Assembly: GCA_037917685.1 (NCBI GenBank)
Contig: JAVCBU010000015.1
Span: 1-13,834, forward strand
Length of the DNA stretch: 13,834 bases
Reading direction: 5' to 3'
DNA from: Thermoproteota archaeon
GTDB lineage: Archaea > Korarchaeota > Korarchaeia > Korarchaeales > JAOZGB01
Positions 487 to 13,834 of this stretch are shown here, one piece after another. The position numbers were made by a program, and so were the translations under genes. The notes beneath the pieces were generated by a model. The model searched no databases, was not told the DNA's origin, and saw nothing but the letters and a program-made list of their open reading frames with translations. Position 1 is the stretch's first letter; each line of letters opens with the position of its first letter.

Positions 487-1158
487 ATGGCGGAAAGTGT
501 TGAATCCCTGCTAGCTGTGGACTGGGATGTTCCCCGGAAGCCTTACCCACCTAAGTATGTCATACTTCCAACCGGGGAGAGGATGGTGGTGCGTGAGGCT
601 TCTAGAGAGGAGGTTCCCCTACTTTTGGAGGCGATTAAACCACTGTTTAATGTTAGGGCTGACTACTATGACGTTGTTAGTGCGAGGATGTATGCTGAGC
701 TGCTTGGCTGGTACCGGTATAGGGTGAGAAATGAGTACTGCCTCGTGGGCGTGGTGGACGGCAAGCTAGTCGGGATTGTGAACAACAGGCTCTACGATCA
801 GAAAACGTGTGTAAGCCTGCACACAATAGCGTTGAAGAGGGGGAGGAGGATAGGCGCCCACCTCTTCGCGGCGAAGCATGAGCATGCCATGGAGAATTAT
901 GGGGTTGAGGAGATACTTATCACCGCCGAAAGCCCCAGGGGATTTAGGAGGTGGATGCTTGAGTGGGGCCTTGAATACAGGCCGGGCATTCAGCACGAGC
1001 TTGGGGGAGCAGCCTGCTGGGTCCTGACCAGGGAAAACTATTACAGGCAAAGGTCTAAACTTGTCTTCGGCAAGAGGCCGGTTCCCGAGGACATGCTGGA
1101 AAGATCTATGAAGCTTGAAATAGTAACCCCTGACATTCTAAAGGAGGAGAGTGATTAG
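487..1158 (+). CDS. GNAT-family N-acetyltransferase-like protein
   Basis: ORF 430-1158; ATG 487 (MAESVESLL) is the preferred start given the promoter position. GNAT-like pattern: VVREASREEV, CLVGVVDGKLVGIV beta-hairpin and the acetyl-CoA-binding motif A KRGRRIGAHL. Confidence 0.75.
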   Translation: MAESVESLLAVDWDVPRKPYPPKYVILPTGERMVVREASREEVPLLLEAIKPLFNVRADYYDVVSARMYAELLGWYRYRVRNEYCLVGVVDGKLVGIVNNRLYDQKTCVSLHTIALKRGRRIGAHLFAAKHEHAMENYGVEEILITAESPRGFRRWMLEWGLEYRPGIQHELGGAACWVLTRENYYRQRSKLVFGKRPVPEDMLERSMKLEIVTPDILKEESD

Positions 1159-1160
1159 GG

Positions 1161-2345
1161 ATGAGGGAGGTCGCCATAGTTGGCTGCGGGATGACAAAGT
1201 TCGGCCGCCACGACGGCAAAAGCCTGATGGACCTCATGTTGGAGGCCTCCGTGAAGGCTATAGAGGATGCAGGCATAGACAAGAGGATGATAGATGCCTT
1301 GTACGTTGCGAGCATGCTGTGCGGAGAACTCACACATCAAACAGCCGTTGCAAGCGCCGTCGCAGACGAGCTCAGCATCCTTCCCGCCGCCGCTGAGCGG
1401 GTGGAGAACGGGCCCGCATCCGGGGGGTCAGCTGTTAAAAACGCCTTTCTCGCAGTGGCATCGGGACTCTACGACTTCGTTCTCGTAACGGGCGGGGAGA
1501 AGATGAGGCATGTAAGTGGAGACGTGGTCACCGATCTCCTCGCAACCATGACACATCCAACAGCAGAGTACATACATGGGGTTACATTGCCATCGCTCGC
1601 GGCAATGTTTACCAGGCTATACATGAAGAAGTACGGGGTGACACGTAAACATCTCGCCCTTGTAGCGGTTAAAAATCATGCAAACGCGTTGAAAAACCCA
1701 TATGCCCACATTCACAGGCCCCTTACACTCGAGGGGATATACTCGGCGCCGGAGGCCGAGGTTAACAATCCGGTGGTAGCCGACCCCCTAAGGCTCTTCG
1801 ACTTCTGCCCCGTGACCGACGGGGCTGCCTCGGTTCTCCTCTGCCCCGTTGAGAAGGCTAGGGAGCTCCATGATACGGTGGTGGCTATAAGCGGCTTTGG
1901 CCACGCAACCGACACGCTTGCAGTCCATGAAAGGGAAGACCCAACAGTCCTGAAGGCTGTGAGGCTCTCAGCCGAGATGGCGTTTAAAATGGCTAAGACA
2001 AGCCCGAAGAACATAGACGTTGCGGAGCTTCACGACGCATTCACAATCCTAGAGATAGCTGAGAGCGAGGATGCAGGGTTCTTCAAGAAGGGAACCGGGC
2101 ATAGGGCGCTGGAGGAGGGGGTTACAGCCCTAGACGGAGACCTCCCGATAAACCCCTCCGGGGGGCTCAAGGCGAGAGGCCACCCTGTCGGTGCAACCGG
2201 GGTAGCCCAGCTCGTCGAGCTGACATGGCAGCTGAGAGGGGAGGCCGGCAGCCGTCAGGTAGAGGGTGCGGAGCAGGCTTTCAGCTGCAACTTCGGAGGC
2301 TTCGGGAACAATGTTGTCTCATTCGTCCTTAAAAGGGTGAGATGA
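1161..2345 (+). CDS. Thiolase-domain protein (archaeal/SCP2-like acetyl-CoA acetyltransferase family) with atypical active site
   Basis: VAIVGCGMTKFG N-terminus, GGEKM, KNHANALKNPYAH, CPVTDGAA, ELHDAF, INPSGGLKARGHPVGATG and NFGG motifs. The usual EAACASG nucleophile motif reads ENGPASG. Confidence 0.93.
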   Translation: MREVAIVGCGMTKFGRHDGKSLMDLMLEASVKAIEDAGIDKRMIDALYVASMLCGELTHQTAVASAVADELSILPAAAERVENGPASGGSAVKNAFLAVASGLYDFVLVTGGEKMRHVSGDVVTDLLATMTHPTAEYIHGVTLPSLAAMFTRLYMKKYGVTRKHLALVAVKNHANALKNPYAHIHRPLTLEGIYSAPEAEVNNPVVADPLRLFDFCPVTDGAASVLLCPVEKARELHDTVVAISGFGHATDTLAVHEREDPTVLKAVRLSAEMAFKMAKTSPKNIDVAELHDAFTILEIAESEDAGFFKKGTGHRALEEGVTALDGDLPINPSGGLKARGHPVGATGVAQLVELTWQLRGEAGSRQVEGAEQAFSCNFGGFGNNVVSFVLKRVR

Positions 2346-2346
2346 C

Positions 2347-2685
2347 ATGGAGAAGATGGTTGGAGTCAAATGTAGAGACTGCGGCAGAGTCTCATACCCC
2401 GAGAGAAGATTCTGCATAAAATGCGGGAGCGACAGGCTTGAAAAAGTAGAGCTCGAAGGCGAATGTGAACTTCTAACCTACACAGAGCTCTACGCCATAC
2501 CAGTAGGTGTAGACCAGCTCCCACTCGTCCTAGGCATGGTGGAGTTCAAGAACGGTGCAAGAGCAACAGGCCAAATAACAACAAGAAAAGTGAGAATAGG
2601 CATGAAGCTACGCCCGGAATGGGGGGCTTTAAGAACAGTCAAAGGGGAGAAGGTCTACGGATTCAAGTTCAAACCGTTAGAGTAG
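2347..2685 (+). CDS. DUF35-family Zn-ribbon/OB-fold protein (thiolase partner)
   Basis: CRDC...YPERRFCIKCGS zinc ribbon, then an OB-fold (LLTYTE, VLGMVEF, VRIGMKL). Starts 1 nt after the thiolase stop. Confidence 0.92.
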   Translation: MEKMVGVKCRDCGRVSYPERRFCIKCGSDRLEKVELEGECELLTYTELYAIPVGVDQLPLVLGMVEFKNGARATGQITTRKVRIGMKLRPEWGALRTVKGEKVYGFKFKPLE

Positions 2686-3403: not shown

Positions 3404-3898
3404 TTAAGATGTCTGGGGATTTGGGTGTTTGGGGGAAGCTGATATTTTGGCCCATAGGTTTTTTAGGGCTTGCATCTGGCTTTGGGTTTCTATGGAGCAT
3501 GGCCTTCTCCTCCTGGTTTCCTCCGCCGCCTTTAGGGGTGTGTATCCGCTTGCTATTAGGAGTGCTGCGAGCATGGTTCCCGTTCTCCCGCATCCGGCGT
3601 AGCAGTGGACTAGGATTTTCGTGTTCCTCCTTTCAGCTTCTCTAACTATGCTTATGAATCTTAGCATTTGGCTTATGGTTGGTGGCGAGAGCTCCGCTAC
3701 CGGTATTACTATGTGGTGGAATCCCAGGTCTCTTATGGCCTGGAGGACTTCGCCGGGCATGTCTGGGTCCAGGGATACTATTATTCGGTGGCCCTGCCTC
3801 CACAGCCAGTATATCTGGCCGGGTGTCGCCGGCATGGCGGAGGCTGAGACTATCGGCGTGAACCTGGAGTAGTTGCTAGGCGGTTCAACCCCTTGCAT
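3404..3898 (-). CDS. Dual-specificity / protein-tyrosine phosphatase family protein
   Basis: P-loop VHCYAGCGRTG (CX5R), IIVSL strand and RRRRPCSIETQSQ loop. Confidence 0.92.
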   Translation of the reverse strand: MQGVEPPSNYSRFTPIVSASAMPATPGQIYWLWRQGHRIIVSLDPDMPGEVLQAIRDLGFHHIVIPVAELSPPTISQMLRFISIVREAERRNTKILVHCYAGCGRTGTMLAALLIASGYTPLKAAEETRRRRPCSIETQSQMQALKNLWAKISASPKHPNPQTS

Positions 3899-3959
3899 GA
3901 GACCTGCACCATCATTATTATTGTTCGGGTGTTCTCTTAATATTGTAGGTGTAGGGTTG

Positions 3960-4433
3960 ATGAGGGTTTACATTGGCTCCGACCATGCTGGCTACAGGTT
4001 GAAGGAGGACTTAAAGGTGCTTCTTAGGGGGCTGGGTGTCAGCATTGTTGACGTAGGCTGCTACTCTGAGAGCCCTGTAGACTATCCAGACATAGCTTTA
4101 AAGGTTGCCGGGGCTGTTAGCAGGGGGGAGGCTGACAGGGGCGTGCTGGTATGTGGCACGGGGATAGGGATGTCCATAGTTGCTAACAAGTTCAGGGGGG
4201 TGAGGGCTGCTGTATGCTGGAGTGTTGAAACCGCGAGGCTGAGCAGGCTCCACAACGACTCCAACATTTTATGCCTCGGCGGTAGAGTGCTCAGCAGCGA
4301 TTTGGCATGTAGGATTCTCGAGGAGTGGCTTAGGACAGGGTTTGAGGGGGGTAGGCACAGGCGTAGGGTTGAGAAGATACTGTCGATTGAGAAATCACGT
4401 CTCGCAGGCGGGGACGCTGAAAATCTCAGGTAG
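3960..4433 (+). CDS. rpiB: Ribose-5-phosphate isomerase B
   Basis: Starts MRVYIGSDHAG at ATG 3960. DYPD, CGTGIG, ANKFRGVRAA, RLHNDSN, LGGR and FEGGRHRRR are RpiB/LacAB signature motifs. Confidence 0.95.
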   Translation: MRVYIGSDHAGYRLKEDLKVLLRGLGVSIVDVGCYSESPVDYPDIALKVAGAVSRGEADRGVLVCGTGIGMSIVANKFRGVRAAVCWSVETARLSRLHNDSNILCLGGRVLSSDLACRILEEWLRTGFEGGRHRRRVEKILSIEKSRLAGGDAENLR

Positions 4434-4960: not shown

Positions 4961-5350
4961 TTAGTATTTAGGGCTCTCTTTCTGCCTTGTTTTTATTTTT
5001 ATGTCTGATAGTTCTCCTATAGCCGTGTGTAGTAGTCTATCGTAGACTTTTGGGTTGTCTTTCAGTATGATCCCCTCTGTTAGAGCTTTATATCGTAGTA
5101 GGGGTGGCGCTCTGTCTAGGGGGACAATGTCGACGGGTATGTTCAGGGTTTCATCTAATACATACCAGGCTCTAAGTAACTCTTTAATACTGAATCTCTC
5201 TTTCAACACTACCCCTATGTCTATATCTCCCACTCTTCTCTGTCTCACTGCAGACCCGAATAGGATGGCGAATGCAACCTGGTTCATCTCTGAGACTGCC
5301 TTCCTGGCCTTGGATAGAATCTCTTTGAGGGATGTGTTGTAGCGTCTCAT
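4961..5350 (-). CDS. Minimal nucleotidyltransferase (MNT/MntA-like antitoxin), copy 1
   Basis: LFGSAVRQRRVGDIDIGV (GS...DxD) and VDIVPL motifs. Its start overlaps the HEPN stop (ATGA, 5347-5350). Confidence 0.9.
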   Translation of the reverse strand: MRRYNTSLKEILSKARKAVSEMNQVAFAILFGSAVRQRRVGDIDIGVVLKERFSIKELLRAWYVLDETLNIPVDIVPLDRAPPLLRYKALTEGIILKDNPKVYDRLLHTAIGELSDIKIKTRQKESPKY

Positions 5351-5760
5351 AGATATGCCTCCCTAATCTTTTCAAGCAGTTTTTCTACACATCTAAAGTT
5401 CTCCTTTACCATGTTGTATACTTTACTGTCGTCTATCACCCAATACCTGTGGATTAGAAGGTTTCTGAGGCCTATAAGCAGCTCAACCTCCCTTATACAT
5501 CCTATGTTTAACCCAATCCTCCCCCCAACTATTCTAACCGCATCCCTATAGGAGCTGGGTGTAACATTGTAAGCCCTTACTGCGATATGGCTGCAGAGGC
5601 TAGCAATGGATTCTACAAGCACCACCAAATTATATCTCATGGAGTAGACCATGTCAATGCTCAACTTAGGAAACGGTGTTTTGCAGATCCTCGCCACCTC
5701 CTCCATGGCATTCCTAGCCTCATATATCTTACTCGTGACAATTTCTTTATCGATAGGCAT
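5347..5760 (-). CDS. HEPN/DUF86 ribonuclease toxin (HepT-like), copy 1
   Basis: RNLLIHRY matches R-X4-H-X-Y. ATG 5760 (MPIDKEIV, 137 aa) is the likely start, matching the length of the second HEPN and the promoter position. Confidence 0.9.
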   Translation of the reverse strand: MPIDKEIVTSKIYEARNAMEEVARICKTPFPKLSIDMVYSMRYNLVVLVESIASLCSHIAVRAYNVTPSSYRDAVRIVGGRIGLNIGCIREVELLIGLRNLLIHRYWVIDDSKVYNMVKENFRCVEKLLEKIREAYL

Positions 5761-5783
5761 CCCACAATAGGAGACCGTTGAAA

Positions 5784-5797
5784 ATATTAATGTTTCT
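5784..5797 (-). promoter_or_regulatory. Putative BRE/TATA promoter of HEPN-MNT pair 1
   Basis: Minus strand AGAAAC-ATTAATAT, with the AT box 24-31 nt upstream of ATG 5760. Confidence 0.5.
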
Positions 5798-5811
5798 ACA
5801 ACAAAGCGCAA

Positions 5812-6066
5812 GTGGAGTACGGCTACGACCCTAGGGGGAGGCTTACAACAGTGCACGCCTTGCTCGACGGCCAGACACTGCTCCTCCTAAACTACACCTA
5901 TGACCCCGAGGGGAACATTGTGGAGCTGCAGACGGAGACACACCTCGAAACCTACACCTACGACCAGGCAGACCGCCTAACCAGTTGGACAGGACCCCTA
6001 GGAGTATGGAGGTACCAGTACGACCTCGCCGGGAACAGGGTTGAACTGCAAACCCCCGAGAAATAT
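5812..6066 (+). pseudogene. RHS/YD-repeat protein fragment
   Basis: Four YD repeats: YGYDPRGRLTTV, YTYDPEGNIVEL, YTYDQADRLTSW and YQYDLAGNRVEL. The repeat pattern ends at ~6066 although the frame runs to 6141. No N-terminus or RHS core end (DPxG) is present. Confidence 0.85.
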
Positions 6067-6948: not shown

Positions 6949-7314
6949 TTAGGTTTTCCGCATCAGTGTCAATTCGTCGTACACCTGGTTTAGTAATGCT
7001 TCGTAGAGCCCTGGAGTAGATTCTAGTATTAGTTTCCCCTTTACAAGGATTTTATGTCTGAATCTAGTTGGTATCTCGTCCAATGGGACTATATCAACGG
7101 GTATCCCGAGTTCAAGCTCAAGCTTTGCGGTCAGCCTCGAATAGTGTTCAAGGTTTCCTCTAGGAGAATAAACCGCAATGTCTAAATCCCTAAAACTTTC
7201 TAGTTCTACAAAACTCCCGAAAGCAATGGCAAGTAAAACATCCTCTTTACTAAGAATAGCTCTAATCCTTTTCACCAAGGCCTCCCTGTCGCCACGGTAA
7301 TATCTAAACTTCAA
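6949..7314 (-). CDS. Minimal nucleotidyltransferase (MNT/MntA-like antitoxin), copy 2
   Basis: AFGSFVELESFRDLDIAV and VDIVPL motifs. TTG 7314 (MKFRYY, compare MRRYN of copy 1) is the likely start, overlapping the HEPN stop; the ORF track extends it to 7377. Confidence 0.9.
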   Translation of the reverse strand: MKFRYYRGDREALVKRIRAILSKEDVLLAIAFGSFVELESFRDLDIAVYSPRGNLEHYSRLTAKLELELGIPVDIVPLDEIPTRFRHKILVKGKLILESTPGLYEALLNQVYDELTLMRKT

Positions 7315-7723
7315 GCCTATCCCTAATCCTATTAGTAAAGCTTCGTATATTTTTGAAATCTTCCCTGATACTTTCATATATCAGTTTGTCATCCACAGCC
7401 CAGTACCTATGAACAATCAAGTTTCTAAGCCGCACAAGTTTCACTGCATCGTTAAATTCCGTGTCAGCCATCAAGCCTTTGTCTACAAGAACCTTAAAGG
7501 CGCTAACCGGGGTTTCAGGCTCGGCAAAATACATTCTCCTTGCCAGGTGAAGAGCGAGTGCCATAAGTGCTTCAACAAGCACAATAACGTAATATCTTAT
7601 CTCACTTCTCTCAGGACGCGAAAGAGAATTAAAAGGCTTCGAAGCATCGCTCAGAATAATATTTATAGCTTCATCAATATCCGCCAAAAGCCTCCCAACA
7701 AACTCAATGTTAATCTTGCTCAA
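7304..7723 (-). CDS. HEPN/DUF86 ribonuclease toxin (HepT-like), copy 2
   Basis: RNLIVHRY (R-X4-H-X-Y). Homologous to 5347-5760 (RY..VLVE, LRNL..HRYW..DD). TTG start with GTGGTTGA upstream. Confidence 0.9.
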   Translation of the reverse strand: MSKINIEFVGRLLADIDEAINIILSDASKPFNSLSRPERSEIRYYVIVLVEALMALALHLARRMYFAEPETPVSAFKVLVDKGLMADTEFNDAVKLVRLRNLIVHRYWAVDDKLIYESIREDFKNIRSFTNRIRDRLEV

Positions 7724-8675: not shown

Positions 8676-9017
8676 TCAGCTGTTTAGTTTAGATCTAGCT
8701 TGTTTCAGTAGCTCCTCCTTACCATTTTCATAATCGGGATAAATGCGCTTCACTATTTCCCAGAACTTCCTAGTATGTCGCTTAACAACTAGATGAGCAA
8801 GCTCGTGAGCAATTATGTATTTCAAGACGTGTTCAGGGTACTTTGCCGCATCTAAGTTCACGTATATCTTGTTCCTCTTTATTAGAGCCAAAGCATCCAT
8901 GTTAGCCACTTCTATCTTTAAGTTTCCATGAATCTCCACATCGCTTTTTTCTAAAAGCTCCTGAAGTATTCTCTCAACCTTTTTCTTAAAGATCTCCGAG
9001 GATTTCTCTTTCATCAT
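8676..9017 (-). CDS. YgjP/DUF45-like zinc metallo-hydrolase (M48-like) associated with type I RM
   Basis: YIIAHELAHLVVKRHTRKFW (HExxH...H..FW) and YPDY. Its start overlaps the hsdR stop (ATGA). Confidence 0.88.
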   Translation of the reverse strand: MMKEKSSEIFKKKVERILQELLEKSDVEIHGNLKIEVANMDALALIKRNKIYVNLDAAKYPEHVLKYIIAHELAHLVVKRHTRKFWEIVKRIYPDYENGKEELLKQARSKLNS

Positions 9018-12000
9018 CCATACACCTCCTCAAGGTTTCTGAATATCCTCATCTCTATCTCATCTATCTTCTCGATTAGGCCGAAGTTCTTTATGATCCC
9101 CTCCCTTATTATCCTCCTTATCTTCTTCCTTTGTCCCTTCTTCAAGAAGCTCTCCCCGCTTAACAAATCTTTATTCCTAAGTCCTTCGAGTATTTCCCTT
9201 GAAACTTCCCTAACCTTTATGTGGTCTGAGAAATAGTCCCTCAACACGTCGAATATCGGAAATATTTCCTTTAGCCTCCTCCTTTCAGCCTCCCTTTCTT
9301 CTACCTTTCGCTTAATTGACCTGATCCTCTCTATGATGTCCCTTGTCAGTTTCTTCTCCTTCCTTATCTCCTCATATATCTTCTCTATTTCCTTCCTTAG
9401 GCTTACGTAGAACTCAGACCCGAGCCTGGATGCTCTCCTTTCAAGATCTCCGAGAACCCTAATCCCTGATATTGGTTCTCCTCCAGATTCTAGCTCTACA
9501 ACCTCAACTTCCCCTATCTTCTCTATTCTATCAACGCCTATCGTTTCCTTTATTAGATCGTAAGTTTTCCTCGCCATCCTCTCTATCTCCTCAAGTCTCA
9601 TTCCTATCTTCCTGTACCTATTCAACGCTACAGAAATGCAGATTACCCATTTGTAAAAATCGATGTGTTTGAAGACTACTTCACACGGAGAAATTAGTTC
9701 GTAAAGGGTTCTTAACTCCTTAGCCTTCTCCTCAAACTCCTTCTCCTTCCCACTCACAACTAACATCTCAACAGCCTTGTCCACGTCCTCTATTCCCTCA
9801 ATCCTGATATCTCTAAGCATTTCCTTGAGCTCTTTAATGAGCCTTTCAAAATCCTCCTCAGAGCTCTTTACATCCTTTATGAAGAGCATGGCTTCCTTGA
9901 CGAATCCCCTTTCGAACTTCTGTAGAGCCTTCTCTAGGTTCTTCGCTACCCCTACGTAATCGACGACAAGACCGAACTCCTTCAACTCCTTGAAAGGTCT
10001 GTTGGTCCTAGCTATTGCCTGTAACAAGCGGTGTTCCTTCAGAGGTTTGTACAAGAAGAGTATCCAGAGGTTTTTAGCGTCAAAACCTGTCAGCAGCATG
10101 TCGCTTACTATAAGGATCCTTGGGAACTCCTCGTTCCTGAACTTGAATATTATGTCCCTGTTTATCCTATCAAAATCAGAGTGTCCGAACCTCCTTGCAA
10201 GCTCCTCTTTGTACTCCTCCACTTCCCTCGACTTTTCCCTAGCCTGGTAGGTCATGACTATCTCTGAGTACTTGGGATCCAGGTGCTTGTCAAGCTCTTT
10301 CTTGAACAAAACGCAGCACTCCCTATCCACAGTTGCGACCATGGCCTTGAGAGGAGTCTTCTCAACCTTCGCTTTGAAGTATTCTGCTATGTCCTTGCAA
10401 ACCTTCTCTACCCTCTCAGCGCCCTTCAACAAAGCTATCCTCGGCCTGAGCTTCCTCCTCCAAAGCCTCCTTTCTTCTGGTGTTAGCTCTTGTATTACCT
10501 CTTCCTCATACTCAGCAAGCCTTTCTATCTCTTCCTGTTTAAGGTGAAGCTCTGGAAGCCTTGCCTCATACCGTATAGGTAAAGTAAAACCGTCCTTTAT
10601 CGAGTTGAGCATCCCGTACCTGCTTAGGTAAAGCTCCCCTTTTGGAGAGAACTTCTGAAAAGTATTCCTTTCTGGCTTTGTTAAGGGAGTTCCTGTAAAT
10701 CCGAAGATCTTCGCGTTCCTGAATATTCCTCTCATCACGTTCGCAAGGATTCCGTACTGGCTCCTATGGCTTTCATCAGTGAATATTATTATGTTCTCCC
10801 TTTCAAGATCTATTTTCCCAGCATCGTGGAGCTTCTTCAGCTTTTCAGGCTTGAACTTCTGAATTAAACAGATGAAAATGCCTCTCTTACCTTCCCTCTC
10901 CTTCCCTCCCCATCTTAGGATTTTAACAAGGTCTCTAATCGTTCTTATCCTCTCTATCTCTATTCCAATCGGAACGAACTCCTCCTCAACTATCTGCCTC
11001 TCTATATCCCTTCTATCAACCACTATGAATATGGAGGGAACTTCAAGCTTGGGATTTCTCAGGAGCTTCCAGGAGGCGAATGCCATAGTCAAAGTCTTTC
11101 CAGACCCCTGCCAATGCCATATCAACCCCACTCTCTCCTTTTCTTCGACCACTCTTTTTACTATCAGGTTTGTCGCCTCAAACTGCATGTACCAAGCCAT
11201 TATCTTCGTGTAGGTGTCCTTGAACCTCTTCACGAATATGAAGTTCTCAATCAAATCAAGGAGGTTTCCCTTTGAGAGGATTCCGAATATTGTAGAGTCA
11301 AGGTAAGGGAACATCTTTAGGGGCTTAACCTCTTCCTCAGTAAAGGGATAGAAGCTCTTCCAAACACCTTTGTCCTTCTCTAGAAGGTTTGAGTAATCTC
11401 CAGCGTAGCAATTTGGGAAGTGCTTCGTTACATATCCATCTGAAACTATGCAGAACTGAACGTACTTGAAAATGCTAGGAACAGATCTCTCGTACTCCAA
11501 AATCTGCTCATAGGCATCGTACCACGTTGTCCCTTCTTCCTCCTTACTGAAAGGGTTCTTAGTCTCTATCACAACTAAAGGAATACCGTTTACAAAGAGG
11601 CAGAAGTCGAAGCGCCTCCTCCTCTCATTCTCCTCTATCTCAAACTCCCTAACTGCGAGAAAATCGTTATTCTCAGGGTTTTCAAAGTCAAAAAGGTAAA
11701 TTATCTTGCTTATCTCCTCTCCATTCCTCCTTATTCTAAGAGGAATTCCATTCTTAACGAAATCCAAGAAGTTCTTTATCCCCTCAATCGTGTTGGGCAA
11801 CAAAATTAGCCTAGAAAACAGATCGCTTCTCTCATCCTCGTTCAAGGTTATGCCGTTAATTCTTTCTAATGCCTTGAACAACCTTTCCTTTAGGAATATT
11901 TCCTCAAGGGATTCCCTCTCTCCCTTTACTCCTGGCCCCCACTTAACTACTTCCCATTTTAGATCTCTTCTCAATCTTTTTGCAATGTACTCTTGAAGGT

Positions 12001-12019
12001 TACTTTCAGCTAACATCAT
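9014..12019 (-). CDS. hsdR: Type I restriction enzyme endonuclease/translocase subunit R
   Basis: RFDFCLFVNGIPLVVIETKNP and QILEY nuclease motifs; HWQGSGKT, DESHRSQYG, FTGTP, LLTGFDA and QAIARTNR helicase motifs. ATG 12019 (MMLAES) after GGGGGT is the likely start rather than 12127. Confidence 0.97.
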   Translation of the reverse strand: MMLAESNLQEYIAKRLRRDLKWEVVKWGPGVKGERESLEEIFLKERLFKALERINGITLNEDERSDLFSRLILLPNTIEGIKNFLDFVKNGIPLRIRRNGEEISKIIYLFDFENPENNDFLAVREFEIEENERRRRFDFCLFVNGIPLVVIETKNPFSKEEEGTTWYDAYEQILEYERSVPSIFKYVQFCIVSDGYVTKHFPNCYAGDYSNLLEKDKGVWKSFYPFTEEEVKPLKMFPYLDSTIFGILSKGNLLDLIENFIFVKRFKDTYTKIMAWYMQFEATNLIVKRVVEEKERVGLIWHWQGSGKTLTMAFASWKLLRNPKLEVPSIFIVVDRRDIERQIVEEEFVPIGIEIERIRTIRDLVKILRWGGKEREGKRGIFICLIQKFKPEKLKKLHDAGKIDLERENIIIFTDESHRSQYGILANVMRGIFRNAKIFGFTGTPLTKPERNTFQKFSPKGELYLSRYGMLNSIKDGFTLPIRYEARLPELHLKQEEIERLAEYEEEVIQELTPEERRLWRRKLRPRIALLKGAERVEKVCKDIAEYFKAKVEKTPLKAMVATVDRECCVLFKKELDKHLDPKYSEIVMTYQAREKSREVEEYKEELARRFGHSDFDRINRDIIFKFRNEEFPRILIVSDMLLTGFDAKNLWILFLYKPLKEHRLLQAIARTNRPFKELKEFGLVVDYVGVAKNLEKALQKFERGFVKEAMLFIKDVKSSEEDFERLIKELKEMLRDIRIEGIEDVDKAVEMLVVSGKEKEFEEKAKELRTLYELISPCEVVFKHIDFYKWVICISVALNRYRKIGMRLEEIERMARKTYDLIKETIGVDRIEKIGEVEVVELESGGEPISGIRVLGDLERRASRLGSEFYVSLRKEIEKIYEEIRKEKKLTRDIIERIRSIKRKVEEREAERRRLKEIFPIFDVLRDYFSDHIKVREVSREILEGLRNKDLLSGESFLKKGQRKKIRRIIREGIIKNFGLIEKIDEIEMRIFRNLEEVYG

Positions 12020-12020
12020 G

Positions 12021-12530
12021 CTACCCCCAATAGACAGACTGAAGGAATGGATTCTCTTCAAACCACTCCGTAAATTCCTCTCTGTTCTTATCGAATCGGA
12101 CAAGCACAAAAGAATGGTAAACGCCACCCTTTAACTTTGATATGAGAAAGGTAACTTTTAGAAGACGTTTTATTTCCTCTGGAATGGGCTCTAAGGAGAC
12201 TAAGAAGGCAAACCTAGCTTCGAAGAGGTCAGCATACTTTTTTAGCTGATAAATGTCATCCAGCTCTATTTTACCTCGTTTAACCTCAGCTACAACGAAG
12301 CCTGGTAAACGACATCCCTCTACAAACCCTGTGATGTCAGGAGCCAATTTTTTGAGAAAAATAAAAATGATTTCTCGACCAGAAGGAATCTTGCTTTTCA
12401 ATTTGTTACTAAATTTTCCTCTTGCTGTGATTTCCAAGTATATTTTAACGCTCTTTTCTTTAAACAGTTCTGCTAACTTTTTCTTTACAACATCGTAATA
12501 CTCTTCCTCCTTCCTTTCCTCATGAGGCAT
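12021..12530 (-). CDS. Stand-alone PD-(D/E)XK nuclease-fold protein (NucS/Mrr-like) inside the hsd operon
   Basis: APDITG...FVVAEVK...DDIYQLKKYADLFEARFAFLVS gives PD, E-x-K and Q-x-x-x-Y motifs. 1-nt gaps to hsdS and hsdR. Confidence 0.75.
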   Translation of the reverse strand: MPHEERKEEEYYDVVKKKLAELFKEKSVKIYLEITARGKFSNKLKSKIPSGREIIFIFLKKLAPDITGFVEGCRLPGFVVAEVKRGKIELDDIYQLKKYADLFEARFAFLVSLEPIPEEIKRLLKVTFLISKLKGGVYHSFVLVRFDKNREEFTEWFEENPFLQSVYWG

Positions 12531-12531
12531 T

Positions 12532-13761
12532 CTAATTCACCTTAACCCTAATTTTCCCAGTTAACAACAAGTCCATTAGACCTTTCTTTATCCGCTCTAG
12601 CTTTTCTTTCCTTTTTATTTCGATCCTAAGCTTCCTATCAACGGTTAAAATCATTTCAACGATTTTGTTTTGTTCGGTGAGAGGTGCAAGAGGTATTTTA
12701 AGGTTAAGTAAATCTCCTTTGTTGATTCCTGCTTGATGAACGTGTGGATGACATATTGCTTTAAAAACACGAAGCCACCATTTTCTAATAAGTATATATA
12801 AGATCCATTCCGGGATAACTTTAGCAGGATTCACTCTTATTCTTGTGAGATGATTACTATATACGCACTGGGAAAATTCCCCTCTAAAAATCGCTGTTTT
12901 CCCTATTAAGTCTATGCTATTAGTATTGTTAAATAAAATATCCCCTGGTCTAAGGAAATATTCCTTGACGTTTTTAGGAGGAGGAACTTTAACGTATGCT
13001 TTAGGATTTATCCACCCTTCTGTATCTATACTATCCATCCTTAACTGTATTACTCCATTCTTATCTCTTTTACCACATGCAAAACCAGGCTTTGCTTCTA
13101 GGATAACATCCCTTAATCTAACAACTTCCCATTCCTTCGGTATCCTTCCTATTTCTGTATCCTCAAACTCCTTATGCCCTATTCCCTTCGTTAAAAGCTC
13201 CTGCATCAAACCCTTCTTAAGCCTCTTAGTTTTCTCGATAATTTCATTTGTTTTTTGAATGGCTTCATCAACGGTTGAAAGAATTTCAGCGATTTTTTGT
13301 TGTTCTGTAATAGGTGGAAGTGGGATATGTACTCGAAGGAGTGACTGTTGAGTAATTTTGGGTCGTGTACTACCTGTGGCTAGTCTTCTCCAATCGAGCC
13401 TCTTAAAGACATAATATGAAAACTTTGGGAAAACAGAAGATTTAGTTTTAATTACCCACACGTGATTATTTGCCCAAAACTTTCCGTTAAAATAGTGAAT
13501 TGCACCGATTGATCCGTCTTGAGCGACAATAATATATTCTCCATCAAAGATGTAATCTTTAACATAGTCTATTATTCCATTAGCTCCAAAGTATGGATAA
13601 GGACCTTGAACTCTATCCTGCTGCTTTACAGGAATCCCGGTTTTGCATTCGGTTACTATATTATCCAATTTACTTATTTTCCAATCTTTGGGAATTTTGC
13701 CAATTGGTGTTTCCTTGAATTTTTCTTCTCTGTAAAATGTTATATTTAAATCAGCTTTCAT
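12532..13761 (-). CDS. hsdS: Type I restriction-modification specificity subunit S
   Basis: Two TRD units with repeated conserved regions: KETPIGKIPKDW/EDTEIGRIPKEW and PLPPITEQQKIAEIL...KKGLMQELLT/PLAPLTEQNKIVEMI...KKGLMDLLLTGK. ATG 13761 after AGGTGG is the likely start (GTG 13770 is an alternative). Confidence 0.97.
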   Translation of the reverse strand: MKADLNITFYREEKFKETPIGKIPKDWKISKLDNIVTECKTGIPVKQQDRVQGPYPYFGANGIIDYVKDYIFDGEYIIVAQDGSIGAIHYFNGKFWANNHVWVIKTKSSVFPKFSYYVFKRLDWRRLATGSTRPKITQQSLLRVHIPLPPITEQQKIAEILSTVDEAIQKTNEIIEKTKRLKKGLMQELLTKGIGHKEFEDTEIGRIPKEWEVVRLRDVILEAKPGFACGKRDKNGVIQLRMDSIDTEGWINPKAYVKVPPPKNVKEYFLRPGDILFNNTNSIDLIGKTAIFRGEFSQCVYSNHLTRIRVNPAKVIPEWILYILIRKWWLRVFKAICHPHVHQAGINKGDLLNLKIPLAPLTEQNKIVEMILTVDRKLRIEIKRKEKLERIKKGLMDLLLTGKIRVKVN

Positions 13762-13762
13762 C

Positions 13763-13834
13763 TTATCCACCTATTAGCTGAGTTAGCTGGGAAATGTATC
13801 CCTCTAGTTTCCTTTCAACTTCCTGCCTTTCAGC
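13763..13834 (-). CDS. hsdM: 3' end of the upstream gene, probably type I methyltransferase subunit M (partial)
   Basis: Open frame AERQEVERKLEGYISQLTQLIGG* ending 1 nt before the hsdS ATG. The helical tail and position fit HsdM; the identity is inferred from context only. Confidence 0.6.
   Translation of the reverse strand, partial: AERQEVERKLEGYISQLTQLIGG

What the first reader, a model, noticed from the sequence alone, without database searches (positions are those of the whole stretch)
487..2685. GNAT + cysteine-less thiolase + DUF35 operon: candidate uncharacterised acyl-CoA pathway
Seen: three genes separated by 2-nt and 1-nt gaps. In the thiolase the nucleophile motif reads ERVENGPASGG, with Pro85 (CCC at 1413-1415) where EAACASG has Cys, and the SCP2-type HDCF motif reads HDAF. 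His291 and GH341P are retained. Established: archaeal thiolase-DUF35 pairs usually work with HMG-CoA synthase in the mevalonate pathway; Ltp2 with the ChsH2 DUF35 domain is a Cys-less thiolase-fold aldolase; PhlABC is an acyltransferase. Inference: this protein cannot use the classic acyl-cysteine mechanism and a GNAT is the third partner, so the trio may do aldol/retro-aldol or acyl-transfer chemistry with CoA-ester channelling to the GNAT.
Basis: partly seen in the sequence, partly recalled or inferred. Interest (0 to 1): 0.75.

Follow-up and report, generated by a model that had tools for sequence, protein, structure and literature searches.

The report
GNAT, cysteine-less thiolase, DUF35 complex
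Three tightly packed genes encode what looks like one enzyme complex, built from an acyltransferase-fold protein, a thiolase-fold protein that has lost its catalytic cysteine, and a small zinc-ribbon scaffold; it is conserved in many uncultivated anaerobes and nobody appears to have studied it.

Summary
Genes at 487-1158, 1161-2345 and 2347-2685 are separated by 2 nt and 1 nt. The thiolase-like protein reads ENGPASGG, with Pro85 where thiolases have the nucleophilic Cys.

This is not a local defect. No Cys occurs at that position in 116 close homologues or in 70 syntenic thiolases. In 70 of 70 metagenome loci with enough downstream DNA, the GNAT-like gene is followed by this thiolase. The first protein has a GNAT fold (Z 13.3). 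A complex model docks it (ipSAE 0.89, best control 0.01) on a 7-residue insertion found only in this thiolase clade.

The genome also holds a canonical HMGCS-thiolase(Cys)-DUF35 trio, so this unit is not the mevalonate module. Elsewhere the trio often sits beside AllF/AllG/AllH-like genes and a PF04199 cyclase. Molybdenum hydroxylase, carbamate kinase and methylmalonyl-CoA mutase genes turn up in some clusters. This points to anaerobic breakdown of nitrogen-rich compounds.

The Ltp2/Sal aldolase signature is absent and no relocated Cys is conserved. The chemistry remains inferred: non-covalent enolate chemistry, or CoA handling, coupled to the GNAT subunit. I rate it a new variant of thiolase/DUF35 assemblies.

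The parts
487..1158 (+). Gene for the GNAT-fold subunit (223 aa). It belongs to a family with no Pfam or NCBIfam model that sources call 'hypothetical'.
   Evidence: ORF. Pfam hit sub-threshold, NCBIfam none. 1434 homologues. AF2 pLDDT 91.6. GNAT fold Z 13.3. The ATG at 487 agrees with the N-termini of homologues.
1142..1147 (+). AGGAGG ribosome-binding-like site 14 nt before the thiolase ATG, inside the end of the GNAT gene.
   Evidence: Read directly from the sequence.
1161..2345 (+). Gene for the thiolase-fold subunit (394 aa) that lacks the nucleophilic cysteine.
1413..1415 (+). CCC codon for Pro85, at the position of the thiolase nucleophile Cys (EAACASG becomes ENGPASG).
   Evidence: HMMER alignments to 7yvy and 6esq. 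47 of 48 Pro in the clade against 90 of 90 Cys in canonical representatives.
1743..1763 (+). Residues 195-201, a 7-residue insertion found only in the trio clade. It is the core of the predicted docking site for the GNAT subunit.
   Evidence: These columns are gaps in at least 80% of 90 Cys-bearing representatives. The insertion is absent from 15 S-type and 6 other P-type rows. 5 of the 7 residues lie in the predicted interface.
2031..2042 (+). HDAF motif (His291-Phe294). The His is retained and the Cys of HDCF is absent.
   Evidence: 121 of 121; 60 of 60; invariant.
2178..2186 (+). Gly340-His341-Pro342 (the GHP motif), retained.
   Evidence: (59 of 60).
2286..2291 (+). Cys376-Asn377. Residue 376 is His or Gln in canonical relatives and variable (C/L/V/I) in this clade. 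Asn377 is invariant.
2347..2685 (+). Gene for a short DUF35 protein (112 aa): zinc ribbon plus OB fold.
   Evidence: Pfam zf-ChsH2 and OB_ChsH2_C. Follows the thiolase in every locus that reaches that far.
2371..2424 (+). The four zinc-ribbon cysteines of DUF35 (Cys9, Cys12, Cys23, Cys26).
   Evidence: Cys9, Cys12 and Cys26 are invariant and Cys23 is at least 90% conserved across 48 sequences.

Best explanation
The three genes encode the subunits of one complex. The thiolase-fold subunit has lost the nucleophilic Cys (Pro85) and the His/Gln at position 376. It keeps His291, His341, Asn377 and Gly380, the residues that polarise a thioester. A GNAT-fold subunit docks on a clade-specific insertion of the thiolase loop domain, which from memory lies near the CoA entrance. 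A short DUF35 zinc-ribbon/OB protein completes the assembly, as in other thiolase/DUF35 complexes. The complex cannot perform thiolysis or Claisen condensation through an acyl-cysteine. Most likely (inferred) the thiolase-like subunit binds an acyl-CoA and does non-covalent enolate chemistry, either decarboxylation of a malonyl-type ester or C-C cleavage or formation. The GNAT subunit would then move the acyl group between CoA and a nitrogen atom, with the same CoA ester passed between the two sites. The module serves anaerobic catabolism of nitrogen-rich compounds (ureides or N-heterocycles) and not the mevalonate pathway. Shown here: the residue losses, the conservation, the synteny and the GNAT fold. 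Predicted: the complex. Inferred: the pathway and the chemistry.
For: Loss of Cys is fixed in the clade. Among the query and its 120 best homologues, 116 carried the motif: 109 have Pro, 6 Thr, 1 Ala and none Cys; 5 did not match the search pattern. Among 70 syntenic thiolases, 68 have Pro and 2 Thr. Position 376 is His in 47 and Gln in 24 of 90 canonical representatives, but C/L/V/I in the clade. HDAF, GHP, Asn377 and Gly380 are invariant. Of 31 clade-specific positions, 14 lie within 10 residues of the four catalytic motifs (p 0.0024), so the pocket looks remodelled, not decayed. Synteny: 70 of 70 metagenome loci with at least 300 bp downstream of the GNAT-like gene carry the thiolase, followed by DUF35. 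Gene ends often abut or overlap. GNAT fold. Complex model: ipSAE 0.89 in three runs, best control 0.01. That mark was reached by 58 of 80 solved complexes and 2 of 110 mismatched pairs. The runs agree in at least 90% of contacts and the partner pLDDT is at least 87. The interface falls on the insertion unique to this clade. Not the mevalonate module: a canonical HMGCS-thiolase(Cys)-DUF35 trio exists in the same genome (L003) and in G043 (L103). Context: of 37 non-duplicate loci of at least 5 kb, 21 hold a PF04199 cyclase, 16 AllG, 11 FdrA/AllF-like and 4 AllH; 24 hold at least one. The G041 cluster adds a Mo-hydroxylase, carbamate kinase, CoA-transferase, methylmalonyl-CoA mutase and an epimerase. 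Within the phylum, the thiolase orthologue is in 3 of 43 genomes, the GNAT-like gene in 4 of 43 and AllG in 4 of 43. All 3 thiolase holders also hold the GNAT-like gene, and 3 genomes hold both the GNAT-like gene and AllG.
Against: There is no biochemical or expression evidence. In the window's own genome the AllG-cyclase pair, FdrA, AllH and carbamate kinase lie on other contigs or far away. The window starts 486 bp upstream of the operon, so the pathway context comes from other organisms. 13 of 37 loci of at least 5 kb show none of the four linked families. In G041 the GNAT-like gene lies 14 kb from the thiolase. GNAT-like paralogues also occur without this thiolase (L010; G040), so the GNAT protein can work alone. 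Invariance of the remaining active-site residues is weak evidence, because the clade is 61-75% identical overall. The complex score used my own alignments on three chains, which the calibration did not cover. Pro is not the Gln of known decarboxylating Cys-less ketosynthases (recalled), so the decarboxylase idea has no direct support.
Confidence: 0.55

Rival explanations
1. The thiolase-like subunit is a catalytically dead scaffold or CoA-binding platform. The GNAT subunit is the only catalyst, an N-acyltransferase whose acyl-CoA is presented by the thiolase/DUF35 pair.
For: Two catalytic residues are gone. The predicted interface puts the GNAT P-loop region (residues 119-128) against the thiolase insertion. 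In known complexes thiolase/DUF35 pairs act as platforms for a second enzyme (passages).
Against: The changes around the old active site are themselves invariant in the clade and enriched near the catalytic motifs. His291, His341 and Asn377 are kept. GNAT-like paralogues exist without a thiolase, so a mere platform seems dispensable, yet it is kept in 70 of 70 loci.
Confidence: 0.25
2. It is a retro-aldolase of the Ltp2/Sal kind: a Cys-less thiolase fold with DUF35 that cleaves a 3-hydroxyacyl-CoA.
For: It shares the Cys-less thiolase fold and the DUF35 partner. PDB 6ok1 (lipid-transfer protein) is hit at E 4.4e-29.
Against: The Tyr base of YDHF/YDCY, shown by mutagenesis to be needed (passages of PMC12329534), is His here (HDAF; 121 of 121). 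DUF35 is free-standing and not fused to a hydratase. No hydratase or steroid genes were seen nearby. The protein lies in another clade, next to ST0096-like Ser-type proteins.
Confidence: 0.08
3. It is a normal thiolase that uses another cysteine (Cys376 or Cys216) as nucleophile.
For: Cys216 is invariant in the clade, and the window protein has Cys376.
Against: Position 376 is Cys in only 28 of 58 and 21 of 48 sequences, otherwise L/V/I. Cys216 is also Cys in 37 of 90 canonical Cys85-bearing thiolases, so it is not a replacement.
Confidence: 0.03
4. It is a spare or decaying copy of the mevalonate or fatty-acid thiolase/DUF35 pair that sits next to an unrelated acetyltransferase by chance.
For: Sources name many members 'acetyl-CoA C-acetyltransferase'. 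The operon has unusual GC and lies in a region of defence genes. The G036 orthologues carry in-frame stops.
Against: Gene order is conserved in 70 of 70 loci from many environments. Identity is high over full length and frames are intact. A clade-specific insertion matches the predicted GNAT interface.
Confidence: 0.02

Closest known systems
[quoted passage not shown]
   Same: SCP2/archaeal-type thiolase fold (E 3.4e-84). A free-standing DUF35 gene follows the thiolase. It is a three-gene unit with a second enzyme, for which a shared CoA site and channelling have been described. That paper is recalled and was not read; it is described second-hand in passages.
   Different: The nucleophile Cys is replaced by Pro, and His/Gln376 is lost. 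The third partner has a GNAT fold and is not HMGCS. The predicted partner contact is mainly with a thiolase insertion and only two DUF35 residues. The gene context is not isoprenoid. The same genome keeps a canonical trio (L003).
ST0096 of Sulfolobus tokodaii (PDB 4yzo, 'putative acyl-CoA acyltransferase', thiolase-like protein)
   Same: It is a close solved relative (E 2.6e-78) and also lacks the Cys, with Ser at that position. A representative with the same motif falls in the sister group inside the same all-Cys-less clade.
   Different: It has Ser and not Pro, lacks the 7-residue insertion (alignment; S-type rows), and reads HDMxx, not HDAF. No function or GNAT partner was reported in what I saw (one passage of PMC6392133).
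Ltp2 / Sal steroid side-chain aldolases with ChsH2/Shy DUF35 domains
   Same: A thiolase fold without the nucleophilic Cys that works with DUF35 and performs non-thiolytic C-C cleavage on a CoA ester.
   Different: Their catalytic Tyr of YDHF/YDCY is absent here (HDAF). Their DUF35 is fused to a hydratase. They serve steroid degradation in actinobacteria and proteobacteria (passages of PMC12329534).
PhlABC / MucABC Friedel-Crafts acyltransferases and BbsAB benzoylsuccinyl-CoA thiolase
   Same: They pair a thiolase-like subunit with DUF35, and PhlABC has a third subunit. PDB 5m3k and 7pxp are hit.
   Different: PhlC and MucB keep the catalytic Cys (Cys88/Cys87; passages). That BbsB also keeps it is recalled. 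The partner PhlA has a thiolase fold, not a GNAT fold.
Cys-less decarboxylating ketosynthases (KSQ, chain-length factor) and GNAT-fold malonyl-CoA decarboxylases (MCD, CurA GNAT-L). All recalled; no call.
   Same: They are precedents in which a thiolase-superfamily site without Cys, or a GNAT fold, decarboxylates a malonyl thioester to an enolate.
   Different: Those use Gln at the Cys position and act on ACP esters. No sequence or structural match to them was obtained here.

Membership tests
Thiolase superfamily, SCP2/archaeal type (fold) | Thiolase_N plus thiolase C-terminal domain over the full length | tested here: met
   Pfam Thiolase_N 2.6e-31 and Thiolase_C_1 4.4e-46. NCBIfam PRK06064 452 bits against a cut-off of 420. 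PDB 7yvy E 2.8e-91.
Catalytically competent thiolase (acetyl-CoA C-acetyl/acyltransferase) | Nucleophilic Cys in the CxS loop (EAACASG) | tested here: not met
   Pro85. None of 116 homologues or 70 syntenic thiolases has Cys there.
Catalytically competent thiolase (acetyl-CoA C-acetyl/acyltransferase) | A second catalytic residue: Cys of HDCF, or the residue before Asn in the C-terminal xNxGG loop | tested here: not met
   The motif is HDAF. Position 376 is His in 47 and Gln in 24 of 90 canonical representatives, but C/L/V/I in the clade. That His/Gln376 is catalytic is my inference.
Catalytically competent thiolase (acetyl-CoA C-acetyl/acyltransferase) | His of HDxF and His of GHP (thioester polarisation) | tested here: met
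   His291 and His341 are invariant in 48 sequences.
Equivalog NF053570 AcCoTHIOL_METTL (archaeal acetyl-CoA acetyltransferase) | Score above the curated cut-off | tested here: not met
   392 bits against a cut-off of 600.
Thiolase/HMGCS/DUF35 mevalonate module | An HMG-CoA synthase gene in the same unit | tested here: not met
   No HMGCS in the window. The canonical unit lies at L003 on contig C6.
Thiolase/DUF35 assemblies in general | A DUF35 (zinc ribbon plus OB) gene directly after the thiolase-like gene | tested here: met
Ltp2/Sal aldolases | Tyr base in the YD[HC][FY] motif | tested here: not met
   HDAF in 121 of 121 and 60 of 60. The requirement is taken from passages of PMC12329534.
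Ltp2/Sal aldolases | DUF35 fused to a MaoC-type hydratase of the preceding step | tested here: not met
   The DUF35 here is a free-standing 112-aa protein.
GNAT superfamily | GNAT fold | tested here: met
   AF2 pLDDT 91.6. Foldseek top hits are all GNATs. VIA-align Z 13.3, rmsd 3.0 A, 163 residues.
GNAT superfamily | Pfam Acetyltransf_1 at the gathering score | tested here: not met
   19.4 bits against a cut-off of 20.7. No NCBIfam hit.
GNAT superfamily | Pyrophosphate-binding loop Q/R-x-x-G-x-G/A (the motif is recalled) | tested here: inconclusive
   The conserved stretch RGxRxGAH (Gly119, Gly123 and His125 invariant) resembles the motif but does not match it exactly. CoA binding was not tested.
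PhlABC-type acyltransferase | Catalytic Cys in PhlC and a PhlA partner | tested here: not met
   Pro85; the partner has a GNAT fold. Cys88 of PhlC is taken from a passage of PMC6392133.

The most novel reading that the evidence does not exclude
The complex conserves energy by turning an amide into a thioester. The GNAT subunit would run 'backwards', transferring the acyl group of an amide left over from ureide or N-heterocycle breakdown (a malonamate-type compound released by the AllFGH-like carbamoyltransferase) onto CoA and releasing ammonia. The Cys-less thiolase subunit would pull this uphill step by decarboxylating the bound malonyl-type CoA ester through its retained oxyanion hole. Both the carbamoyl phosphate and the acyl-CoA would then yield ATP. 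This would be a new reaction type for both folds and a new strategy for life at the energy limit.
Probability: 0.1. Interest if true: 0.9.

Novelty: new variant of a known kind. Interest (0 to 1): 0.72.

Why it matters
Thiolase/DUF35 assemblies are known as platforms that hold a second enzyme: HMG-CoA synthase, PhlA, reductase/dehydratase, or a hydratase. This unit adds a different kind of partner, a GNAT fold, and a thiolase subunit that cannot be a thiolase.

The unit is common in metagenomes. There are 1434 GNAT-like homologues. Names given by sources and the Atlas place members in Bathyarchaeia, Hadarchaeales, Aigarchaeota, Chloroflexota and other bacteria.

Sources label these proteins 'acetyl-CoA C-acetyltransferase'. 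Metabolic reconstructions of such uncultivated anaerobes may therefore count a thiolase that is not one.

More broadly, 48 of the 139 closest family rows aligned (the query and 138 representatives) carry another residue at the nucleophile position. Non-thiolytic use of this fold seems much more common than the few studied cases suggest.

The link to AllFGH-like genes also offers a handle on what those recently named proteins do outside E. coli.

Tried and rejected
- **Relocated nucleophile.** Cys376 is not conserved, and Cys216 is shared with canonical thiolases. Rejected.
- **Ltp2/Sal-type aldolase.** The Tyr motif is absent. Rejected as membership.
- **HDAF as a sign of inactivity.** Canonical Cys-bearing thiolases also carry it. 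Rejected.
- **Single-protein scan of genome contigs** with the GNAT-like protein gave only one locus.
- **Thiolase-first sampling in the class of G043.** The orthologue was found in 1 of 301 genomes searched, G043 itself, so this gave no test of linkage in the thiolase-to-GNAT direction. That direction rests on 3 of 3 genomes in the phylum and on G043.
- **RNA evidence.** No RNA holder was listed for window:400-2700.
- **Literature.** Four searches found no paper on a GNAT plus Cys-less thiolase plus DUF35 unit in the library held: '4YZO'; DUF35, thiolase, archaea; DUF1116, DUF35, FdrA, thiolase, DUF2877, cyclase; at least 3 terms; thiolase-like, DUF35, ST0096, SCP2-thiolase-like, 'lacks the catalytic cysteine'; at least 2 terms. 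Subscription journals are not covered.
- **Structural measurements.** No structural model of the thiolase subunit was made, and the tools return no coordinates. Distances in the pocket, and the position of the insertion relative to the CoA site, could not be measured. The statement that the insertion lies near the CoA entrance is recalled from thiolase structures.
Full report
**1. The observation**

The window carries three + strand ORFs at 487-1158 (the frame is open from a GTG at 430), 1161-2345 and 2347-2685. The gaps between them are 2 nt and 1 nt. An AGGAGG lies 14 nt before the second start. The second protein reads ERVENGPASGG, with Pro85 encoded by CCC at 1413-1415. It also reads LHDAFT (His291), ARGHPVGAT (His341) and AFSCNFGG (Cys376).

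It is a full-length thiolase-fold protein. It hits Pfam Thiolase_N and Thiolase_C_1 and NCBIfam PRK06064 at 452 bits against a cut-off of 420. It scores only 392 against 600 for the archaeal acetyl-CoA acetyltransferase equivalog.

HMMER alignments to solved structures put Pro85 exactly on the Cys of 'EAACASG' in 7yvy and 6esq. The third hit, 4yzo, has Ser there. The third gene is a short DUF35, with zf-ChsH2 and OB_ChsH2_C domains and four zinc-ribbon cysteines.

The first protein reaches only 19.4 bits for Acetyltransf_1 against a cut-off of 20.7, and has no NCBIfam hit. Its AlphaFold2 model (pLDDT 91.6, pTM 0.90) matches GNAT structures. Foldseek gives E 1.2e-7 and TM 0.51-0.60 to 8gxj_C. 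VIA-align gives Z 13.3, rmsd 3.0 A over 163 residues to 1yre_A, and all 50 listed rows are acetyltransferase-type GNAT entries or uncharacterised proteins.

**2. The loss of the cysteine is a fixed trait of a clade**

I examined the query and its 120 best homologues (66-92% identical). Their source names include Bathyarchaeia, Aigarchaeota and Hadarchaeales, and many are labelled 'acetyl-CoA C-acetyltransferase'. The motif was found in 116 of the 121: 109 have Pro, 6 Thr, 1 Ala and none Cys. Five did not match my pattern. HDAF is present in 121 of 121.

An exhaustive HMMER search of 50%-identity representatives returned its best 150. I aligned the 138 of at least 340 residues together with the query. 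Of these 139 rows, 90 have Cys, 48 another residue (S 19, P 8, D 8, G 5, N 3, E 2, A 2, Q 1) and 1 a gap.

A FastTree of 150 rows used these 139, three paralogues from the same genome and eight trio members. It places the window protein in a 10-row all-Pro clade (SH-like support 99). That clade lies inside a 32-row clade (support 99) that contains no Cys at all (P 16, S 15, 1 gap). Its sister rows include a representative with the motif of 4yzo/ST0096. The tree is a quick one with local supports only and a midpoint root.

**3. What else changed in the thiolase**

I compared 48 trio thiolases (alignment A2) with the 90 Cys-bearing representatives. 31 positions are at least 90% fixed in the clade and rare (under 20%) in canonical proteins. 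14 of them lie within 10 residues of the four catalytic motifs, which cover 87 of 394 positions (hypergeometric p 0.0024).

Position 376, just before the invariant Asn377, is His in 47 and Gln in 24 of 90 canonical proteins. In the clade it is C 21, L 16, V 9 and I 2 of 48. In the syntenic set it is Cys in 28 of 58. The 'relocated Cys376' idea therefore fails. The invariant Cys216 is also Cys in 37 of 90 canonical proteins, so it is not a replacement either.

His291, Asp292, His341, Asn377 and Gly380 are invariant. Residues 195-201 are a 7-residue insertion. These columns are gaps in at least 80% of the 90 canonical rows, and the insertion is absent from 15 S-type and 6 other P-type rows.

**4. 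Linkage with the GNAT-like gene**

The GNAT-like protein has 1434 homologues with E up to 0.001. They carry no Pfam domains and are mostly named 'hypothetical'.

Of these, 548 encoded a relative and the best 80 were kept. Of these 80 loci, 70 have at least 300 bp downstream of the GNAT-like gene. All 70 carry the thiolase next, with DUF35 after it wherever the DNA reaches. In one locus (L041) the thiolase-DUF35 pair is inverted.

Among 70 of these thiolases that cover the motif (including L006 and L008), 68 have Pro and 2 Thr. HDAF is present in 60 of 60 and GHP in 59 of 60. Gene ends abut or overlap in many loci.

In the window's phylum (43 species genomes) the thiolase orthologue (E up to 1e-100) is in 3 genomes: G000, G036 and G041. 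The GNAT-like gene is in 4: the same three plus G040. In G041 the two lie 14 kb apart in one cluster.

GNAT-like paralogues also occur without this thiolase. One is a second copy in this genome beside a glutamine-synthetase-like gene (L010). Another is in G040 beside CoxG, a PnrA-type ABC transporter and an AMP-binding enzyme.

**5. A predicted complex**

I submitted alignments of the three proteins (A2, A3, A4) with the GNAT-like protein as partner. The model supports binding but does not show it. The score was 0.89 in each of three runs and the best of three controls was 0.01. That mark was reached by 58 of 80 solved complexes and 2 of 110 mismatched pairs. The runs agree in at least 90% of their contacts and the partner's pLDDT is at least 87. 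The calibration holds only roughly, because my own alignments and three chains were used.

The confident contacts on the thiolase are residues 16, 185-189, 191-193, 196-198, 200-204 and 213. This includes 5 of the 7 insertion residues and 4 of the 31 clade-specific positions. On the GNAT side they include residues 25-30, 119-128 (the conserved RGxRxGAH stretch), 154-158, 191-195 and the C-terminus. Only two DUF35 residues touch the partner.

I know of no solved GNAT-thiolase complex, so recall by the model is unlikely; this is from memory. An insertion that exists only in the clade that always has the GNAT neighbour, and that is also the predicted docking site, is the strongest internal consistency in the data.

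**6. Not the mevalonate or beta-oxidation thiolase**

The same genome has three other thiolase-type units:
- HMGCS-thiolase(EAACASG)-DUF35 on C6 (L003).
- A thiolase(EAACASG)-DUF35 pair between 3-hydroxyacyl-CoA dehydrogenase-like and acyl-CoA dehydrogenase-like genes on C4. These two names are read from the translations (L002).
- A further Cys-less thiolase-like/DUF35 pair beside CoA-transferase genes on C18 (L004).

G043, another holder of the trio, also keeps a canonical HMGCS-thiolase-DUF35 unit (L103).

**7. Genomic context elsewhere**

I clustered neighbour ORFs and annotated them with Pfam (on cluster representatives). One search covered 114 of the 211 neighbour ORFs of at least 110 aa, chosen as those nearest the trio. 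The same families recur.

I counted 37 loci of at least 5 kb, after dropping L018 and L072 as near-duplicates. Among them, 21 hold a PF04199 'cyclase' (the kynurenine-formamidase-type amidohydrolase family; that description is recalled). 16 hold AllG (PF06545), 11 an FdrA/AllF-like CoA-ligase-fold protein and 4 AllH (PF11392). 24 hold at least one of the four and 13 hold none.

Typical orders are FdrA-AllG-cyclase-GNAT-thiolase-DUF35 with AllH on the other strand, as in L058, L059 and L089. A variant is FdrA-GNAT-thiolase-DUF35-AllG-cyclase, as in L056, L063 and L068.

Other recurring neighbours are RidA, Amidohydro_2, xanthine-dehydrogenase-type molybdenum enzymes with their FAD subunit, PnrA-type ABC transporters, a xanthine/uracil permease, and B12-binding/CobA/MeaB/methylmalonyl-CoA mutase genes.

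The 20-kb cluster of G041 unites many of these. It holds two methylmalonyl-CoA mutase genes, CobA, the thiolase-DUF35 pair, a glyoxalase-fold protein (probably the epimerase), AllG and AllH. It also holds the three Mo-hydroxylase subunits, FdrA, an amino-acid-kinase-family protein (probably carbamate kinase), the two CoA-transferase subunits, the GNAT-like gene and CoxG.

AllFGH is the oxamate carbamoyltransferase of E. coli, which works with carbamate kinase in anaerobic allantoin use (PMC11326118, abstract and passages; PMC12625717, passage). In the phylum AllG occurs in 4 of 43 genomes (G000, G040, G041, G042). Three of these also hold the GNAT-like gene. Kinship inflates this overlap.

In the window's own genome these genes exist but are scattered. 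AllG-cyclase is at C1:200-202 kb, FdrA at C1:142 kb, carbamate kinase at C1:373 kb, and AllH lies near a Mo-hydroxylase on C7. The window begins at a contig end 486 bp upstream of the operon. The pathway inference therefore rests on other organisms.

**8. Origin in this genome**

The operon has 54.7% GC against 44.8% for the genome, which puts it in the top 1.4% of 2.2-kb windows. It is rare in its phylum. It lies beside two HepT/nucleotidyltransferase pairs and a type I restriction system. This fits acquisition by transfer but does not prove it.

**9. How it most likely works**

Shown: thiolysis or condensation through an acyl-cysteine is excluded for the clade. The pocket residues that polarise a thioester are kept. 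The pocket surroundings are remodelled and then fixed. The three genes travel together.

Predicted: the GNAT subunit docks on the clade-specific insertion.

Inferred: the thiolase-like subunit binds an acyl-CoA and stabilises its enolate without a covalent intermediate. This would be decarboxylation of a malonyl-type ester, or aldol- or Claisen-type C-C chemistry with an outside partner. The GNAT subunit would carry out acyl transfer between CoA and a nitrogen atom on the same ester. The recurrent methylmalonyl-CoA mutase, CoA-transferase and carbamoyl-transfer genes suggest substrates of the malonamate or methylmalonamate type, or similar products of ureide or pyrimidine-like breakdown. That is conjecture.

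The main rival is that the thiolase subunit is only a CoA-holding platform. Precedents for decarboxylation by Cys-less ketosynthases and by GNAT-fold enzymes are recalled, not tested.

**10. Comparison with what is known**

Thiolase/DUF35 platforms with a second enzyme are established:
- HMGCS in archaea (recalled; second-hand).
- Reductase and dehydratase in the Sulfolobus fatty-acid synthase (bioRxiv 10.1101/2024.07.05.601840; outline and sections 7 and 8 read).
- PhlA/MucA (PMC6392133 and PMC12960953, passages).
- Hydratases with Ltp2/Sal (PMC12329534, passages).

None of what I read mentions a GNAT partner, and four literature searches found nothing on this unit. The supplements of these papers were not consulted. 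Their phylogenies might include this clade without comment.

I therefore file it as a new variant of a known kind. The architecture follows the same logic (thiolase fold plus DUF35 plus a partner enzyme). The partner fold is new, the thiolase subunit is non-thiolytic and forms its own clade, and the metabolic setting is different.

Noticed in passing
L004 (G000:C18:30032-33862): A second Cys-less thiolase-like protein in the same genome (RVESGGATP at the nucleophile site, 429 aa), followed by a long 241-aa DUF35. It lies divergent from two CoA-transferase subunit genes. The first of these is 73% identical to the CoA-transferase that sits next to the GNAT-like gene in the G041 cluster.
   Followed up: partly
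L010 (G000:C1:126502-130086): A second copy of the GNAT-like gene (61% identical) lies directly upstream of a glutamine-synthetase-family gene, with no thiolase nearby. An FdrA-like gene lies about 14 kb further on.
   Followed up: partly
window 4961-5856 and 6949-7723, - strand: Two HepT-like RNase / nucleotidyltransferase (MNT) gene pairs, apparently toxin-antitoxin modules.
   Followed up: no
window 8676-13770, - strand: Type I restriction-modification genes: HsdR (9014-12127) and HsdS (12532-13770). A 113-aa YgjP-like metallopeptidase fragment sits at 8676-9017, and an unassigned 169-aa ORF at 12021-12530 overlaps the HsdR start.
   Followed up: no
window 487-2685 against the rest: The operon has 54.7% GC against 44.5% for the rest of the window and 44.8% for the genome, which puts it in the top 1.4% of 2.2-kb windows.
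   Followed up: partly
proteins P0244-P0393: Of the 139 closest family rows aligned (the query and 138 representatives), 48 carry Ser, Pro, Asp, Gly, Asn, Glu, Ala or Gln at the nucleophile position. Several Ser-type ones are 455-539 aa long, which suggests fusions. Loss of the thiolase cysteine looks frequent and repeated (at least 6 changes forced by well-supported branches).
   Followed up: partly
G036:C226 (L008, L098) and L036: The G036 orthologues carry in-frame stops: one TAG in the GNAT-like gene and one TGA in the thiolase. The L036 GNAT-like gene also holds a stop. These may be decaying copies or assembly errors.
   Followed up: no
window 3404-4433: A dual-specificity/tyrosine phosphatase-like gene (3404-3898, -) and RpiB (3873-4433, +) start back to back with overlapping 5' ends as called from the first start codons.
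   Followed up: no
L101 (G000:C7:80000-93000): The AllH-like gene of this genome lies next to a carboxyltransferase read as two adjacent ORFs (173 and 271 aa) and a biotin ligase. It is about 6 kb from a Mo-hydroxylase large subunit.
   Followed up: no
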